Source of the DNA: Escherichia phage vB_EcoM_R5505
Strand: one strand, 5' to 3'
Length of the DNA: 64,000 nucleotides
Sequence record: MK373786.1
In this document: positions 4,005 to 7,093 of the stretch, piece by piece
Position numbering within the stretch: position 1 is the first letter of the stretch
Layout: each line of letters opens with the position of its first letter
The notes under the pieces: model-generated
The model's input: the letters and a program-made list of their open reading frames with translations, nothing else
Database searches by the model: none
Told to the model about the DNA's origin: nothing
Translations under genes and position numbers: made by a program

Positions 4005-4044
4005 TTCGTTCTCCAAGTTGTTTTCTGTATCAGTAGTTGATAGT

Positions 4045-4092
4045 TGTATAGTACCATGGAAGAAAAGGGATGTAAACAGTTTTGTGAAAAAA
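4045..4092 (-). promoter_or_regulatory. sigma70-type early promoter for the e.8-to-e transcription unit
   Basis: Minus strand reads TTCACAAAACTGTTTACA-N18-TACTAT; same cassette as the promoters at 8001-8040, 8301-8354, 8669-8721. Confidence 0.5.
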
Positions 4093-4210
4093 TTTTTAAA
4101 AAGTTTTAGGGAATTCTAGGGTCAGGAGGGGCAATTAAAAGATAGGATAATATATTATAAAGGGTAGAAACTAAATGATGCCTAGAGAGGCCCAGAAAGG
4201 CCTAGATACC

Positions 4211-4238
4211 AAAAAGTCCCAACCTTTCGGTTGGGGCT
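4211..4238 (-). terminator. rho-independent terminator after the 157-aa gene
   Basis: Minus-strand hairpin GCCCCAACC-GAAA-GGTTGGGAC followed by UUUUU; sits just 3' of the stop at 4246. Confidence 0.6.
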
Positions 4239-4245
4239 AAGAATG

Positions 4246-4719
4246 TTATTTGATTTGTTTAGCAGACCAAATGCGGTCTTTAATAATTTTTTGGATGTCT
4301 TCAACATACTCAAGAGAGTGAGCATGTGGGTTATCTTTGAAACTATAAGCACGAGCTAACTTTTGACCTTCAGTTTTGATTACTAAAAGCTCTTTAAGGA
4401 TAGCTTCATATTTGGAGATAATTCCTTTAACAATATTTTTTTCTTGTGTAGCTTTAGGATCTGCTTTAGGAGCAGGTTTACCTGAAGCCTTTGCAAAAGC
4501 AGCGCCAGTAGCAACTAAACTTTTCCAGGCCATACTAACTGCATTCCCTGTAAATCCTTCGGCTTTCATATCACGAGCAAATTGGAATCGTGATTCATCG
4601 GAAGCATCTTTATAGGAATATTTACCCGCGGCAATGGCTGCTTTTGCGACAGCTTGAATTTCGGTGCTAGATGCTTCATTTAACACCGCTTCATTTAAAA
4701 ATTGAGCATATGATTTCAT
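4246..4719 (-). CDS. Ala/Lys-rich protein with internal-protein-like N-terminal capsid-targeting motif
   Basis: 157-aa ORF, ATG start; N-terminus MKSYAQFLNEAVLNEA resembles the T4 internal-protein targeting sequence MKTYQEFIAEA and carries two L-x-E sites (prohead protease motif). Confidence 0.7.
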   Translation of the reverse strand: MKSYAQFLNEAVLNEASSTEIQAVAKAAIAAGKYSYKDASDESRFQFARDMKAEGFTGNAVSMAWKSLVATGAAFAKASGKPAPKADPKATQEKNIVKGIISKYEAILKELLVIKTEGQKLARAYSFKDNPHAHSLEYVEDIQKIIKDRIWSAKQIK

Positions 4720-4765
4720 CTTATTTCCTGTTTTAATTCGTGGTTTTAATATACTTATTTATACC

Positions 4766-4792
4766 AAAAAGCCCCAACCTTTCGGTCGGGGC
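4766..4792 (-). terminator. rho-independent terminator at the 3' end of the tRNA/stable-RNA transcription unit
   Basis: Minus-strand hairpin GCCCCGACC-GAAA-GGTTGGGGC followed by UUUUU; near-identical to the terminator at 4211-4238. Confidence 0.6.
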
Positions 4793-4844
4793 TAAGCCTT
4801 GCGGCAACCTTGTCGGGGTTCCACCTGCTAAGGCAAGTGTTTGT

Positions 4845-5002
4845 ACGAAACGCCGGGATTCGAACCCGGTTATTAAGCAGTTGACGCTACTCAATATTTT
4901 TAAAAGGCCATATCTCGACCATATCCGAACGTTCCGTCAAAAACGCTACTCGGCTTACGGCAAAGATATTTCCTCGAATCGATAATTCGGTGCGCCGTTT
5001 CT
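4845..5002 (-). ncRNA. candidate small stable RNA with tRNA-like 3' module (possibly T4 species-RNA analogue)
   Basis: Minus strand has perfect T-arm CCGGG-TTCGAAT-CCCGG followed by 7-nt acceptor-like strand that pairs with GAAACG ~150 nt upstream; no ORF; several strong hairpins at 5004-5104. Confidence 0.3.
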
Positions 5003-5104
5003 GCTGTGATATAAGAGGGCATTAACAAAACATAAAGATTTATTAATGCCAGTCCTTAAACAGGGAACATCAGTCCGACGACTTACCGGTAGCGACCCGG
5101 TTTC

Positions 5105-5455
5105 TTAATATTCTTTTAAAGCATCAATTTGTTCACGGCGTAAACGCCATAAATCAATTGCTTCATAAGCAGATTCAGCATTTCGAATTAGCCGACATTT
5201 ATGTAAAGACTTATGATTTTGATATTGTGTAGATAACGGAATTTTATCTAAAAGGTCTTTACGTTCAAAATATTCGTAACCATCTAAACCAAATGAACGA
5301 TTTTTGAGAAATTGCCAATGACCATATTCGTTTTCGACATAAACATAATCTGCATGCTGATAAAGCAAATTAATTACACGTTCAGAAATAACAGTATCAT
5401 TATGATTAAAATAGAATGTTAAATCATGAACTACTAAATAAACATTACATTTCAT
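5105..5455 (-). CDS. hypothetical protein encoded between tRNA-Arg and the stable-RNA region
   Basis: 116-aa ORF, ATG start with SD (TGAGGAAAATG); no recognisable motif; not GIY-YIG or HNH. Confidence 0.6.
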   Translation of the reverse strand: MKCNVYLVVHDLTFYFNHNDTVISERVINLLYQHADYVYVENEYGHWQFLKNRSFGLDGYEYFERKDLLDKIPLSTQYQNHKSLHKCRLIRNAESAYEAIDLWRLRREQIDALKEY

Positions 5456-5473
5456 ATTTTCCTCACTTATAAT

Positions 5474-5549
5474 TGGTCGAGGCAGTAGGGATCGAACCTA
5501 CGACCTAGGACTTAGAAGGTCCTTGCTCTTCCTTCTGAGCTATGCCCCG
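5474..5549 (-). tRNA. tRNA-Arg (anticodon UCU)
   Basis: Manual cloverleaf: acceptor CGGGGCA/TGCCTCG, D-stem GCTC/GAGC, anticodon stem AGGAC/GTCCT with loop CTTCTAA, T-arm GTAGG-TTCGATC-CCTAC, encoded CCA. Confidence 0.85.
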
Positions 5550-5553
5550 TAAT

Positions 5554-5629
5554 TGGGGTGACCGATGGGAGTCGAACCCATGACTACGAGAATCACAATC
5601 TCGAGTTCTACCAACTGAACTACGGCCAC
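5554..5629 (-). tRNA. tRNA-His (anticodon GUG)
   Basis: Cloverleaf: acceptor GTGGCCG/CGGTCAC, D-stem GTTC/GAAC, anticodon stem CGAGA/TCTCG loop TTGTGAT, T-arm ATGGG-TTCGACT-CCCAT, discriminator C, CCA encoded; no encoded G-1. Confidence 0.75.
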
Positions 5630-5743
5630 ATTAATACCTACTCCAACAATCAAGATGTCTTCACACGAAATTAAGAGAAGAGTGATCAGTTCAACCCCTA
5701 TAATCGCGTCAAGTAGATATTAATGTGACAGTTGTCACAAATT

Positions 5744-5818
5744 TGGCGGACGTGATAGGATTCGAACCTATAACCAATCGCTTAACAGGCGATCGCTCTG
5801 CCATTGAGCTACACATCC
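5744..5818 (-). tRNA. tRNA-Asn (anticodon GUU)
   Basis: Cloverleaf: acceptor GGATGTG/CACGTCC, D-stem GCTC/GAGC, anticodon stem ATCGC/GCGAT loop CTGTTAA, T-arm ATAGG-TTCGAAT-CCTAT, CCA encoded. Confidence 0.75.
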
Positions 5819-5822
5819 AAAT

Positions 5823-5909
5823 TGGTGGGGAGTGGTGGAGTCGAACCACCCGAGTCGCAATGACAATGAATTTACAGTCCACACCGCTACCTCTACGGGA
5901 TAACTCCCC
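5823..5909 (-). tRNA. tRNA-Tyr (anticodon GUA), long variable arm
   Basis: Perfect acceptor GGGGAGT/ACTCCCC, T-arm GGTGG-TTCGACT-CCACC, anticodon loop CTGTAAA, ~15-nt variable arm; D-arm pairing imperfect. Confidence 0.6.
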
Positions 5910-5918
5910 AAATTAATT

Positions 5919-5993
5919 TGGTGGCCCTGGGTGGAATTGAACCACCATCTGGCGATTATGAGTCGCTTGCTTGAACCTTCCAGCTACAGGGCC
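5919..5993 (-). tRNA. tRNA with CAU anticodon (Ile2 lysidine type as in T4, or Met)
   Basis: Acceptor GGCCCTG/CAGGGCC, D-stem GCTG/AAGC, anticodon loop CTCATAA, T-arm GGTGG-TTCAATT-CCACC, CCA encoded. Confidence 0.7.
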
Positions 5994-5994
5994 T

Positions 5995-6070
5995 TGGTGC
6001 TGATTGACGGAATCGAACCGCCGACCTTCTCATTACAAGTGAGTTGCTCTACCTACTGAGCTAAATCAGC
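5995..6070 (-). tRNA. tRNA-Thr (anticodon UGU)
   Basis: Acceptor GCTGATT/AATCAGC, D-stem GCTC/GAGC, anticodon loop CTTGTAA, T-arm GGCGG-TTCGATT-CCGTC, CCA encoded. Confidence 0.85.
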
Positions 6071-6075
6071 AAAAC

Positions 6076-6165
6076 TGGCGGAGGCGATAGGATTTGAACC
6101 TATGAGTCGCCGGAGCGACTGCCGGTTTTCAAGACCGGTGCATTAAACCACTCTGCCACGCCTCC
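6076..6165 (-). tRNA. tRNA-Ser (anticodon UGA), long variable arm
   Basis: Acceptor GGAGGCG/CGCCTCC, anticodon stem ACCGG/CCGGT loop CTTGAAA, long variable stem-loop, T-arm ATAGG-TTCAAAT-CCTAT, CCA encoded. Confidence 0.85.
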
Positions 6166-6167
6166 AG

Positions 6168-6241
6168 TCTCCATACAAGGATTTGAACCTTGGACCTCCT
6201 GATCCCAAATCAGGCGCTCTACCAAACTGAGCTACACGGAG
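6168..6241 (-). tRNA. tRNA-Pro (anticodon UGG), CCA not encoded; 2-nt spacer to tRNA-Ser
   Basis: Acceptor CTCCGTG/TATGGAG, D-stem GCTC/GAGC, anticodon stem CCTGA/TCAGG loop TTTGGGA, T-arm CAAGG-TTCAAAT-CCTTG; Pro-Ser dimeric arrangement as in T4. Confidence 0.85.
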
Positions 6242-6251
6242 TAAATTAAAT

Positions 6252-6325
<74 letters not shown>

Positions 6326-6330
6326 AAATT

Positions 6331-6417
6331 TGGTGCGAGAAGTGGGACTCGAACCCACAAGGAAATCATTCCGCAGCATTTTAAGTGCTGTGCCTTTACC
6401 AATTTGACCATTCTCGC
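6331..6417 (-). tRNA. tRNA-Leu (anticodon UAA), long variable arm
   Basis: Acceptor GCGAGAA/TTCTCGC, anticodon stem CAGCA/TGCTG loop CTTAAAA, long variable arm, T-arm GTGGG-TTCGAGT-CCCAC, CCA encoded. Confidence 0.85.
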
Positions 6418-6418
6418 G

Positions 6419-6490
6419 CTGGGAATAAAGGACTCGAACCTTTGCATCTAGCAGTCAAAGTGCTATGCCTTACCAACTTGGCTAATTCCC
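6419..6490 (-). tRNA. tRNA-Gln (anticodon UUG), CCA not encoded; 1-nt spacer to tRNA-Leu
   Basis: Acceptor TGGGAAT/ATTCCCA, D-stem GCC/GGC, anticodon stem TAGCA/TGCTA loop CTTTGAC, T-arm AAAGG-TTCGAGT-CCTTT; Gln-Leu dimeric arrangement as in T4. Confidence 0.85.
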
Positions 6491-6577
6491 AATTATTAAC
6501 AAAGGCTCTCAAACAAGAACCCTTGATGATAGAGGGTATTAATCAGTGCGGTATGAGTTAATAATAACAAATAATTC

Positions 6578-7093
6578 TTAAAGCAAATTAAACATTTTAA
6601 CGGTCGGCAAAACAATTTCTTCTTCTATATAAGAGTATTTAACACTCTCAACTACACGCAAAAAATCATAATCATAATACTCAGAAGCATTACCTAAAAT
6701 ATTAATAAGTCCTTCAAGCACTTTATTACCATTCACAAAGAATAAGTCAAATACGCGTTCTTCGTCTTCTTCGGATTTATTACCAAGGTCAACTTCTATA
6801 TCAAAGACCTTTTTAATGAATTCTGGATAAAGTTGTTCTGAGAACAGTCCTTCAACCAAGTATTCATAAATAAAAAGCGATTGCTCGCTGAACAAGCCAT
6901 TACCACAATAACGTTCAGCTTTAGTACTAGAATGTCTACTTTTAAACTTCTTTAAAAGATATTGAAATTGTAAGATTTCATGCTCTTCTACGCCAAACAG
7001 TGTTTTAGTTTTATAGTTGTCACCATCATTTTCCCAGGTAGTGACATCAATTACGTAACCCTGTGGAATTGTAGTACCTAAACAAATATTCAT
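6578..7093 (-). CDS. hypothetical protein, last gene of a four-gene early operon in the tRNA-ipI variable region
   Basis: 171-aa ORF, ATG start, 4-nt overlap with upstream gene; acidic; no motif recognised. Confidence 0.65.
   Translation of the reverse strand: MNICLGTTIPQGYVIDVTTWENDGDNYKTKTLFGVEEHEILQFQYLLKKFKSRHSSTKAERYCGNGLFSEQSLFIYEYLVEGLFSEQLYPEFIKKVFDIEVDLGNKSEEDEERVFDLFFVNGNKVLEGLINILGNASEYYDYDFLRVVESVKYSYIEEEIVLPTVKMFNLL

What the first reader, a model, noticed from the sequence alone, without database searches (positions are those of the whole stretch)
5105..5455. Protein-coding gene of unknown function embedded inside the tRNA / stable-RNA transcription unit
A 116-aa ORF with a good SD and ATG starts 19 nt downstream of the tRNA-Arg 3' end and is followed by ~300 nt of highly structured noncoding sequence and a terminator. 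In T4 the tRNA region hosts the homing endonuclease segB as I recall, but this protein has no GIY-YIG or HNH signature, so it is a different, unassigned cargo gene, co-transcribed with tRNAs.
Basis: seen in the sequence. Interest (0 to 1): 0.5.

Follow-up and report, generated by a model that had tools for sequence, protein, structure and literature searches.

The report
Known uncharacterised gene after phage tRNA-Arg
This is a real, conserved but dispensable small phage gene, published in 2008 as the "trna.2 ORF" of phage T2L, that sits between the last tRNA and two stable RNAs of T2-type phages; its function is still unknown and nothing here makes it extraordinary.

Summary
A 116-aa ORF lies on the minus strand at 5105-5455. 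It starts 18 nt after the encoded CCA of tRNA-Arg(UCU), behind a GAGG ribosome-binding site. Its TAA stop abuts the homologues of T4 rnaD and rnaC and their terminator.

The window is a T2/RB18-type Tequatrovirus. The ORF is the "T2L trna.2 ORF" of Brok-Volchanskaya et al. 2008 and belongs to PHROG 3355 (unknown function). It occurs in 425 phage records; T4 lacks it.

It is a genuine gene: dN/dS is 0.05-0.26. Homologues down to 27-32% identity lie inside or at the end of the tRNA cluster in six Tevenvirinae genera.

No function could be assigned. Pfam, NCBIfam, PADLOC and PDB sequences gave nothing, and 1.84 billion representative proteins yielded only phage relatives. Two moderate AlphaFold models matched no solved fold. 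The apparent Bas37 orthologue (matched by position and size only) is non-essential in a transposon screen and shows no conditional phenotype in the three comparisons I read.

Best reading: an accessory protein translated from the tRNA/stable-RNA precursor, probably a host-specific or counter-defence binder. That last step is inference only. The gene is already known, and interest is low to moderate.

The parts
6561..6588 (-). MotA-box plus -10 (T4 middle-promoter-like) site just upstream of the first tRNA (tRNA-Gln). Presumed start of the tRNA/ORF/stable-RNA transcript.
   Evidence: Pattern match ATTTGCTTTA-N12-TATTAT. PMC2330249 states that the T4 cluster is transcribed mainly from a middle promoter just upstream of the cluster. 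Function here is inferred.
5474..6491 (-). Cluster of 11 tRNA genes: Gln, Leu, Gly, Pro, Ser, Thr, Met/Ile(CAU), Tyr, Asn, His, Arg.
   Evidence: ARAGORN and Rfam tRNA hits.
5474..5549 (-). tRNA-Arg(UCU), T2-type allele with encoded CCA. Last tRNA of the cluster.
   Evidence: It differs strongly from the T4 tRNA-Arg allele in the alignment.
5456..5473 (-). 18-nt spacer carrying the Shine-Dalgarno GAGG. Its length is identical, and its sequence nearly identical, in Tequatrovirus and Mosigvirus homologues.
   Evidence: No occluding hairpin was found (z = 0.41).
5105..5455 (-). 116-aa ORF, the T2L 'trna.2 ORF', PHROG 3355. 100% identical to QBQ79748.1 of Escherichia phage vB_EcoM_R5505.
   Evidence: Published probe primers map to 5425-5453 and 5113-5137.
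4989..5108 (-). Homologue of T4 rnaD (species 2 stable RNA). The T4 5' end aligns to 5108, inside the last sense codon of the ORF.
   Evidence: 106/119 identical.
4844..4982 (-). Homologue of T4 rnaC (species 1 stable RNA).
   Evidence: 137/139 identical.
4770..4793 (-). Intrinsic terminator ending the tRNA/ORF/stable-RNA unit.
   Evidence: 10-bp stem, 7 G-C pairs, T run. Conserved with T4.

Best explanation
The ORF is a genuine, conserved, dispensable accessory gene of T-even-type phages.

**Shown:**
- It encodes a protein of about 116 aa that is rich in aromatic residues and has a near-neutral pI.
- The predicted structure is a beta-hairpin, a helix, a second beta-hairpin, a conserved but low-confidence middle segment, and a long C-terminal helix.
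- It is under purifying selection.
- Relatives occur only in Straboviridae.
- It always sits inside or at the distal end of the tRNA cluster.
- It is absent from T4.
- It is non-essential in the apparent Bas37 orthologue, which was matched by position and size only.

**Inferred (transcription and processing):**
- It is transcribed only as part of the long tRNA-rnaD-rnaC precursor, from the middle promoter upstream of tRNA-Gln to the terminator after rnaC.
- Its coding region is bounded by two RNA-processing sites: the tRNA-Arg 3' end, 18 nt before the AUG, and the rnaD 5' end, at or in the stop codon.
- It can therefore be translated only from precursor that is not yet fully processed. This would keep expression early or middle, transient and probably low. 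The same design was proposed for segB in T4.

**Inferred with low confidence (about 0.3 on its own):**
- The protein has no catalytic signature. It most likely acts by binding a host or defence protein, as a host-specific takeover or counter-defence factor that travels with the phage tRNAs, which are themselves counter-defence tools.
For: **Real gene.**; dN/dS 0.05-0.26.

**Identity with the T2L trna.2 ORF.**

**Dispensable.**
- T4 lacks it; there rnaD starts 1 nt after tRNA-Arg.
- T4 x T2L progeny lose it without loss of viability (PMC2330249).
- bas37_0245 has the same size, the same 18-nt spacing and the same neighbours. It took insertions at 33 of 38 sites and was called non-essential.
- Its log2FC was -0.20, -0.30 and -0.31 (p 0.65, 0.51, 0.47) in three host comparisons.

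**Synteny with the tRNA cluster in six genera.**

**Single transcription unit.**
- Middle-promoter-like site at 6561-6588.
- No late-promoter motif between that site and the ORF.
- The only minus-strand sigma-70-like and MotA-like matches between that site and the rnaC terminator lie inside the ORF itself (5241-5422) and were treated as chance; none precedes the start codon.
- The only terminators on this strand below the ORF are at 4793-4770 and 4235-4218.

**Processing boundaries.** The spacer and the TAA|GAAACCGGG junction are conserved in all ORF-bearing phages examined. The T4 rnaD 5' end maps to 5108.

**Binder rather than enzyme.**
- No family or fold match.
- The invariant residues are mostly aromatic or hydrophobic, plus N42, K51, R53 and R107.
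- Residues 58-82 are conserved in sequence but have pLDDT below 50. This is typical of a segment that folds on a partner.
- pI is 5.8-7.8, which argues against a general nucleic-acid binder.

**Setting and precedent.**
- The surrounding region is plastic, with a homing endonuclease in relatives and an internal-protein-like gene next door.
- The tRNA-rich region of T5-like phages carries the anti-retron protein Rad and other anti-defence ORFs (bioRxiv 10.1101/2023.03.15.532788).
- T6 tRNA-Tyr counters Septu (PMC13096335).
Against: - No direct evidence of transcription, translation or any phenotype.
- The transposon screen found no conditional requirement for the Bas37 orthologue in the three comparisons read. 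Any counter-defence target must therefore be absent from those hosts.
- The Bas37 orthology rests on position and size, not on a sequence comparison made here.
- Conserved gene order is common in T4-like genomes, so the tRNA linkage may be plain vertical inheritance.
- dN/dS is low, with no sign of genome-wide arms-race evolution. There is only a local variable patch at residues 18-28.
- The AlphaFold models are only moderate (pLDDT 68 and 73.5), so 'no fold match' is weak evidence.
- The rnaD 5' end in this phage is inferred by homology with the T4 annotation.
Confidence: 0.45

Rival explanations
1. It is a helper for the RNAs it is encoded with. A small RNA-binding protein would assist the maturation, stability or use of phage tRNAs or of the stable RNAs rnaD and rnaC. 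This would be analogous in role, not in sequence, to T4 Cef, which is annotated as a modifier of suppressor tRNAs.
For: - Homologues stay inside or at the end of the tRNA cluster in six genera, even though the tRNA sets differ.
- In Tequatrovirus and Mosigvirus the gene is wedged exactly between tRNA-Arg and rnaD, with conserved junctions.
- Conserved aromatic and basic residues (W47, F49, K51, R53, W103, R107) could contact RNA.
Against: - T4 makes the same rnaC (137/139 identical) and rnaD without this gene.
- pI is near neutral, not basic.
- hhalign finds no similarity to T4 Cef.
- No RNA-binding domain was detected.
- In Winklervirus and Mosugukvirus the rnaC-like sequence is not adjacent to the gene.
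- Insertions in the Bas37 orthologue are well tolerated.
Confidence: 0.15
2. It is a remnant or accessory part of a selfish mobile element, for example a degenerate homing endonuclease or a DNA-binding module that once moved into the tRNA cluster. It would have no function for the phage.
For: - The tRNA cluster is a known landing site for homing endonuclease genes: segB in T4, a seg-type gene between tRNA-His and tRNA-Arg in vB_EcoM_11B_SA_NWU, and between tRNA-Gly and tRNA-Ser in AR1 and KIT03.
- The ORF is patchily present: 425 records against 917 that share flanking sequence.
- The T2/Mosigvirus clade has an H10...N17...N29/H34 spacing that superficially recalls a beta-beta-alpha metal finger.
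Against: - No GIY-YIG or HNH domain.
- No similarity to SegB or to the T2 trna.1 ORF.
- H10, N17 and N29 are not conserved in the distant homologues.
- Purifying selection across the full length, with no frameshifts or truncations in the complete phage genomes examined.
- The position is the same across genera rather than sporadic.
Confidence: 0.07
3. It is not translated. On this reading the stretch is a transcribed spacer of the tRNA precursor that happens to be open.
For: - RNA processing at both ends would leave a very short leader and might remove the stop codon.
- No expression data were found.
Against: - dN/dS is 0.05-0.26, with synonymous divergence up to saturation while length and frame are kept.
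- The Shine-Dalgarno sequence and spacing are conserved.
- Protein-level homology is detectable at 27-32% identity in other genera.
- No Rfam family matches this stretch.
Confidence: 0.03

Closest known systems
T2L 'trna.2 ORF' (EMBL AJ880101; Brok-Volchanskaya et al., Nucleic Acids Res 2008, PMC2330249)
   Same: This is the same gene. It lies between tRNA-Arg and the stable-RNA genes. The published probe primers #24 and #25 map to the two ends of the window ORF, with 2 and 1 mismatches. The T2 record has an ORF of the same size, 96.6% identical in protein, in the same place.
   Different: This phage also carries tRNA-Thr, tRNA-His and a 114-nt structured spacer that T2 lacks, and it lacks the T2 trna.1 ORF. 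The name clashes with the unrelated T4 gene trna.2, which lies upstream of the cluster.
PHROG 3355 (unknown function)
   Same: Full-length match, E = 1.7e-52. All 14 aligned homologues hit it.
   Different: None. The family carries no functional annotation.
T4 segB, the other protein gene embedded in a T-even tRNA cluster
   Same: Both are small ORFs inside the tRNA precursor. In both, a tRNA or stable-RNA processing site lies at the stop codon. Both are dispensable.
   Different: SegB is a 221-aa GIY-YIG homing endonuclease. This protein has no nuclease domain and no similarity to it. It is lost, not gained, in SegB-driven gene conversion.
Anti-defence ORFs of the tRNA-rich region of T5-like phages (Rad and neighbours; bioRxiv 10.1101/2023.03.15.532788)
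   Same: Both are small accessory protein genes interspersed with phage tRNAs. The tRNAs themselves counter tRNA-cleaving defences.
   Different: Rad is a 189-aa protein with a TOPRIM/RNase-type domain, and the authors report that T-even phages lack a Rad homologue. The link is by analogy only, and no anti-defence activity is known for this ORF.
T4 Cef (modifier of suppressor tRNAs)
   Same: Both are small phage proteins. Cef is tied to phage tRNA biology, and this one is encoded with the tRNAs.
   Different: There is no sequence relationship (hhalign probability 0.05%). Cef is encoded far from the tRNA cluster.

Membership tests
PHROG 3355 | Significant full-length match to the family profile | tested here: met
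   E = 1.7e-52, residues 1-115 against profile positions 1-116 of 117. 14 of 14 homologues match.
T2L trna.2 ORF (PMC2330249) | ORF directly downstream of T2-type tRNA-Arg and upstream of the species 2 and species 1 RNA genes; hybridises to the probe made with primers #24 and #25 | tested here: met
   Position. Primers map to 5425-5453 (minus strand) and 5113-5137 (plus strand). The T2 genome record shows the same arrangement.
GIY-YIG homing endonucleases (SegB-like) | GIY-YIG catalytic domain detectable by profile, or similarity to Seg proteins | tested here: not met
   No Pfam family at E <= 1. hhalign against T4 SegB gives probability 0.24%.
HNH (beta-beta-alpha metal) endonucleases | Conserved catalytic His and metal-binding Asn/His across the family | tested here: not met
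   No Pfam hit. The candidate residues H10, N17 and N29 vary in the distant homologues.
T-even internal proteins (IPI/II/III type) | N-terminal capsid-targeting sequence of the MK(T/S)(F/Y)x(E/Q)F type with an L/I-x-E cleavage site | tested here: not met
   The N-terminus is MKCNVYLVVHD. Compare T4 IPI, MKTFKEF.... The neighbouring ORF 4246-4719 does have such a start.
T4 Cef | Sequence similarity to T4 Cef | tested here: not met
   hhalign probability 0.05%.
Pfam DUF2654 | Score above the gathering threshold (25 bits) | tested here: not met
   Only local sub-threshold hits of 13-18 bits, mostly over residues 25-51 (in P0005 over residues 87-112), in 5 of 14 members. None in the window protein.
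Known anti-phage defence proteins (PADLOC-DB) | Match to a defence-system profile | tested here: not met
   No hits for the window protein or three distant homologues.
Phage anti-defence proteins (functional class) | Relief of a specific host defence when present; plating defect when deleted | not testable with these tools
   The only indirect data are for the apparent Bas37 orthologue, which shows no conditional depletion in three host comparisons.

The most novel reading that the evidence does not exclude
The protein would be the founding member of a Straboviridae-specific fold that neutralises a tRNA-targeting or other host immune nuclease. It would be kept in the tRNA operon so that decoy or replacement tRNAs and a protein inhibitor are delivered together early in infection. 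Its output would be throttled by the RNA-processing sites that flank it.
Probability: 0.2. Interest if true: 0.55.

Novelty: already known. Interest (0 to 1): 0.25.

Why it matters
The practical value is modest. The report puts a name, a literature reference and a family on an unlabelled ORF. It identifies the 'structured noncoding sequence' as rnaD and rnaC. It also shows that homology and fold searches are exhausted for this protein.

If the protein did prove to be a counter-defence factor linked to the phage tRNAs, it would add a case to the emerging view that phage tRNA clusters are anti-defence islands. The tight packing of an mRNA between RNA-processing sites is also a tidy, testable example of translation competing with precursor processing.

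Tried and rejected
**Family and sequence searches with no informative result**
- Pfam. Only sub-threshold local DUF2654 hits, and one-off chance hits to Hemotin, XAP5 and REV.
- NCBIfam and PADLOC.
- PDB sequences by profile. The best hit was a cGMP-kinase fragment at E = 0.004, judged to be chance.

**Fold searches**
- Foldseek against PDB with model 2: nothing below E = 0.16.
- Foldseek against BFVD: only uncharacterised Straboviridae proteins.
- The afdb50 library was not available.

**Large protein searches**
- The 5.8-billion-cluster search and the 1.84-billion-representative HMMER search returned only phage relatives.
- P0011, a 650-aa repetitive protein hit over residues 83-108 only, was rejected as a repeat artefact.
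- IMG/VR yielded 7 loci, all T4-like.

**Direct comparisons**
- hhalign against T4 Cef, T4 SegB and the T2 trna.1 ORF: no relationship.

**Ideas considered and dropped**
- A degenerate HNH finger, because the putative catalytic residues are not conserved.
- A 2H-phosphoesterase HxT motif, because the spacing is wrong and H10 is not conserved.
- A hairpin occluding the ribosome-binding site, as in T4 endonuclease genes: not found.
- Dependence on the adjacent tRNA-Arg(UCU): the ORF has no AGA or AGG codons.
- An internal promoter: only a MotA-like match and weak sigma-70-like matches inside the coding sequence (5241-5422), treated as chance.

Full report
**1. The observation**

The window carries 11 tRNA genes on the minus strand (6491 down to 5474), ending with tRNA-Arg(UCU) at 5474-5549 (Rfam agrees).
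- A 116-aa ATG-initiated ORF occupies 5105-5455 on the same strand.
- The gap is 18 nt (5456-5473) and reads AAUUAUAAGUGAGGAAAAU before the AUG, so a GAGG Shine-Dalgarno lies 5 nt upstream.
- The roughly 340 nt downstream fold far better than shuffles (-127 kcal/mol, z = -6.7) and end in a strong intrinsic terminator at 4793-4770.

**2. What the surroundings are**

Megablast places the window in Tequatrovirus of the T2/RB18/AR1 type.
- The window protein is 100% identical to QBQ79748.1 of Escherichia phage vB_EcoM_R5505.
- Alignment with the annotated T4 record shows that the 'structured noncoding sequence' is the pair of T4 stable RNAs.
  - rnaD (species 2) lies at about 4989-5108, 106/119 identical.
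  - rnaC (species 1) lies at 4844-4982, 137/139 identical.
  - The shared terminator follows.
- In T4, rnaD begins 1 nt after tRNA-Arg. The ORF is simply absent there, and the T4 tRNA-Arg is a quite different allele preceded by segB.
- Rfam has no model for rnaC or rnaD, which explains the lack of hits there.

**3. The ORF is already in the literature**

Brok-Volchanskaya et al. (NAR 2008, PMC2330249) sequenced the T2L tRNA region. They reported 'two ORFs of unknown function', trna.1 and trna.2, plus extra tRNAs in place of segB and its flanks.
- Their trna.2 probe primers #24 and #25 map to 5425-5453 (minus strand, 2 mismatches) and 5113-5137 (plus strand, 1 mismatch), the two ends of this ORF.
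- A T2 genome record shows a 351-nt ORF in the same place after tRNA-Arg, 96.6% identical in protein.
- In T4 x T2L crosses, SegB-driven gene conversion removed this ORF from 99.6% of progeny. So it is dispensable.
- The name clashes with the unrelated T4 gene trna.2, which lies upstream of the cluster.

**4. It is a real gene**

- The protein matches PHROG 3355 ('unknown function') end to end (E = 1.7e-52).
- tblastn finds it in 425 phage records.
  - T2, RB51, RB18 and AR1 types are 84-99% identical.
  - Mosigvirus is about 65-68%.
  - Winklervirus Kc304 is 40%.
  - Pectobacterium PM2 is 32%.
- 917 records share some of the flanking RNA genes.
- My Nei-Gojobori calculation on nine alleles gives dN/dS of 0.05-0.26 wherever dS is not saturated. 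Frame and length are kept.
- The Shine-Dalgarno spacer is conserved in length, and nearly in sequence, in every ORF-bearing Tequatrovirus and Mosigvirus locus examined. So is the junction of stop codon and rnaD, TAA|GAAACCGGG (TAA|GAAGCCGGG in Mosigvirus HX01; one Mosigvirus-type locus, L014, has two extra bases).

**5. Distribution and synteny**

- The two very large protein searches found only phage relatives. IMG/VR added nothing new.
- In every genus where a homologue is detectable, it lies inside or at the distal end of the tRNA cluster.

| Genus (example) | Position of the homologue |
|---|---|
| Tequatrovirus | after tRNA-Arg |
| Mosigvirus (HX01) | tRNA-Met, tRNA-Arg, 18-nt gap, ORF, then rnaD and rnaC at 95% nt identity |
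| Winklervirus (Kc304) | after the last tRNA |
| Mosugukvirus (PM2) | one small ORF after tRNA-Trp |
| Kagamiyamavirus (EcS1) | between tRNA-Gly and tRNA-Cys |

- A second Winklervirus-like contig shows the same position.
- This suggests the gene is an old resident of the cluster, lost in the T4 lineage, rather than a recent cargo insertion.
- Conserved gene order is common in these genomes, however, so the linkage alone does not prove a tRNA-related function.

**6. What the protein looks like**

- Two AlphaFold2 runs (7 and 14 sequences) gave moderate models: pLDDT 68 and 73.5, pTM 0.61 and 0.66.
- Both have the same topology: a beta-hairpin (residues 4-17), a helix (25-34), a second beta-hairpin (37-52), a low-confidence middle part (about 55-82) and a long C-terminal helix (93-115).
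- Invariant positions are Y6, L31, N42, W47, F49, K51, R53, Y62, F63, L68, L69, L84, I90, W103 and R107.
- The segment Y62-L74 is conserved in sequence yet poorly predicted. I read that as a possible partner-binding element (inference).
- pI is 5.8-7.8 and aromatic content is 13-19% (14-22 of 112-122 residues).
- BFVD returns only uncharacterised proteins of other Straboviridae: Serratia X20, EcS1, KPV15, Cronus, SP18, Bp7 and Vibrio nt-1.
- Pfam, NCBIfam, PADLOC and PDB sequence profiles give nothing usable.
- There is no relationship to SegB, to the T2 trna.1 ORF or to T4 Cef.

**7. Expression logic (inferred)**

- On the coding strand, the only good promoter-like element upstream is a MotA-box plus -10 site at 6561-6588, just before tRNA-Gln. 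This fits the published statement that the T4 cluster is read mainly from a middle promoter upstream of the cluster and terminates after species 1 RNA.
- No late-promoter motif and no terminator lie between that site and the ORF. The sigma-70-like and MotA-like matches on this strand all fall inside the coding sequence and are weak.
- No hairpin hides the ribosome-binding site.
- The coding region is thus bounded by the tRNA-Arg 3' end, 18 nt before the AUG, and by the rnaD 5' end.
- By homology with the T4 annotation, the rnaD 5' end falls at 5108, inside the last sense codon.
- If processing occurs there, it would sever the stop codon. Only unprocessed precursor could then give full-length, properly terminated protein.
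- Brok-Volchanskaya et al. proposed the same kind of restraint for segB, whose stop codon is cut off during tRNA-Arg maturation.
- That T4 tRNA precursors are processed by RNase P and RNase E is textbook knowledge that I recall, not something tested here.

**8. Experimental data on an orthologue**

- The HIDEN-SEQ preprint (bioRxiv 10.1101/2025.11.20.689424) lists, in phage Bas37, a 351-nt gene, bas37_0245. It lies 18 nt downstream of tRNA-Arg and has the same neighbours and spacings as in the window: a 474-nt gene 383 nt downstream, tRNA-His 4 nt upstream of tRNA-Arg, and a 114-nt gap to tRNA-Asn.
- I take it to be the orthologue by position and size. I did not align the sequences.
- It took transposon insertions at 33 of 38 sites and was called non-essential.
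- In the three host comparisons I read, its log2 fold changes were -0.20, -0.30 and -0.31 (p 0.65, 0.51, 0.47). One of these was K-12 against the clinical isolate CFE303.
- Three further sheets were not read. The main text does not name the gene among its hits.
- In T4, rnaC and rnaD were also non-essential.

**9. Interpretation**

- Well supported: this is a conserved, dispensable accessory gene expressed from the tRNA/stable-RNA precursor.
- What it does is not known.
- I favour a non-enzymatic binder with a host-specific or counter-defence role, about 0.3 on its own. The reasons:
  - It has no catalytic signature.
  - It has a conserved, probably partner-dependent segment.
  - It is patchily distributed.
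  - It sits in a plastic region next to homing endonucleases and an internal-protein-like gene.
  - Phage tRNA regions are now known to carry anti-defence functions. Examples are tRNA-Tyr and Rad in T5-like phages and tRNA-Tyr against Septu in T6.
- The main rival is a helper for tRNA or stable-RNA biology. The synteny favours it. It is weakened because T4 makes nearly identical RNAs without this gene, and because the pI is neutral.
- A mobile-element remnant and a non-translated spacer are both unlikely, given purifying selection and the lack of nuclease features.

**10. Verdict**

Homology and fold searches add no function. Novelty: already known. Interest: low to moderate (0.25).

Noticed in passing
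window 4246-4719 (-), with 4756-4763 (-) and the repeats 4206-4241 / 4761-4796: A 157-aa ORF (PHROG 2280, unknown function) starts MKSYAQFLNEA, which resembles the capsid-targeting leader of T-even internal proteins (T4 IPI starts MKTFKEF). It has a late-promoter motif TATAAATA just upstream. The gene is bracketed by two copies of a 36-nt terminator-containing repeat (94% identical, 555 nt apart). T4 has a single copy and no such gene, which suggests a cassette gained or lost by recombination between terminators. The Bas37 counterpart (bas37_0244) is non-essential.
   Followed up: partly
window 5630-5743 (-): The 114-nt spacer between tRNA-Asn and tRNA-His folds much better than shuffles (-32.7 kcal/mol, z = -4.4), with a 13-bp closing stem and internal arms. 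ARAGORN and Rfam do not call it. T2 lacks both this element and tRNA-His; AR1, KIT03 and Bas37 have both. It could be a decayed tRNA or a further small stable RNA.
   Followed up: partly
window 5919-5993 (-): The tRNA called 'Met (CAT)' by ARAGORN is listed as tRNA-Ile in the Bas37 annotation of the HIDEN-SEQ preprint, and it occupies the place of T4 tRNA-Ile. It is probably a lysidine-dependent tRNA-Ile2.
   Followed up: no
window 5474-5549 (-) against T4 (L003 2674-2748): The two tRNA-Arg(UCU) genes are very different alleles outside the anticodon and T arms, although the downstream rnaD and rnaC are 89-99% identical. This marks a sharp mosaic boundary at the tRNA-Arg/rnaD junction.
   Followed up: partly
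ORF residues 18-28 (window about 5372-5404): Alleles of the ORF within Tequatrovirus differ mainly in one patch (HNDTVISERVI against EYEKHISFREI), at the loop and start of helix 1. The rest is nearly identical. This could be a recombination mosaic or a locally fast-evolving surface.
   Followed up: no
L001 3358-3978; L002 4468-5118; L008 131-781: Relatives carry seg-type homing endonuclease genes at different points of the same tRNA cluster: between tRNA-His and tRNA-Arg, or replacing tRNA-Pro between tRNA-Gly and tRNA-Ser. The window has none in its cluster.
   Followed up: no
Bas37 141028-141591 (HIDEN-SEQ Extended Data Tables 2 and 7): A 564-nt hypothetical gene (bas37_0243), lying between the e.8 homologue and the internal-protein-like gene, is called essential (1 of 48 sites hit). 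That is odd for this accessory region. The window has only about 230 nt of non-coding DNA at that place (4017-4245).
   Followed up: no
window 5342-5370 (-): A MotA-box plus -10 pattern (ATTTGCTTTATCAGCATGCAGATTATGTT) lies inside the ORF. It was treated as chance, but it would direct transcription into the 3' part of the ORF and rnaD/rnaC if active.
   Followed up: no
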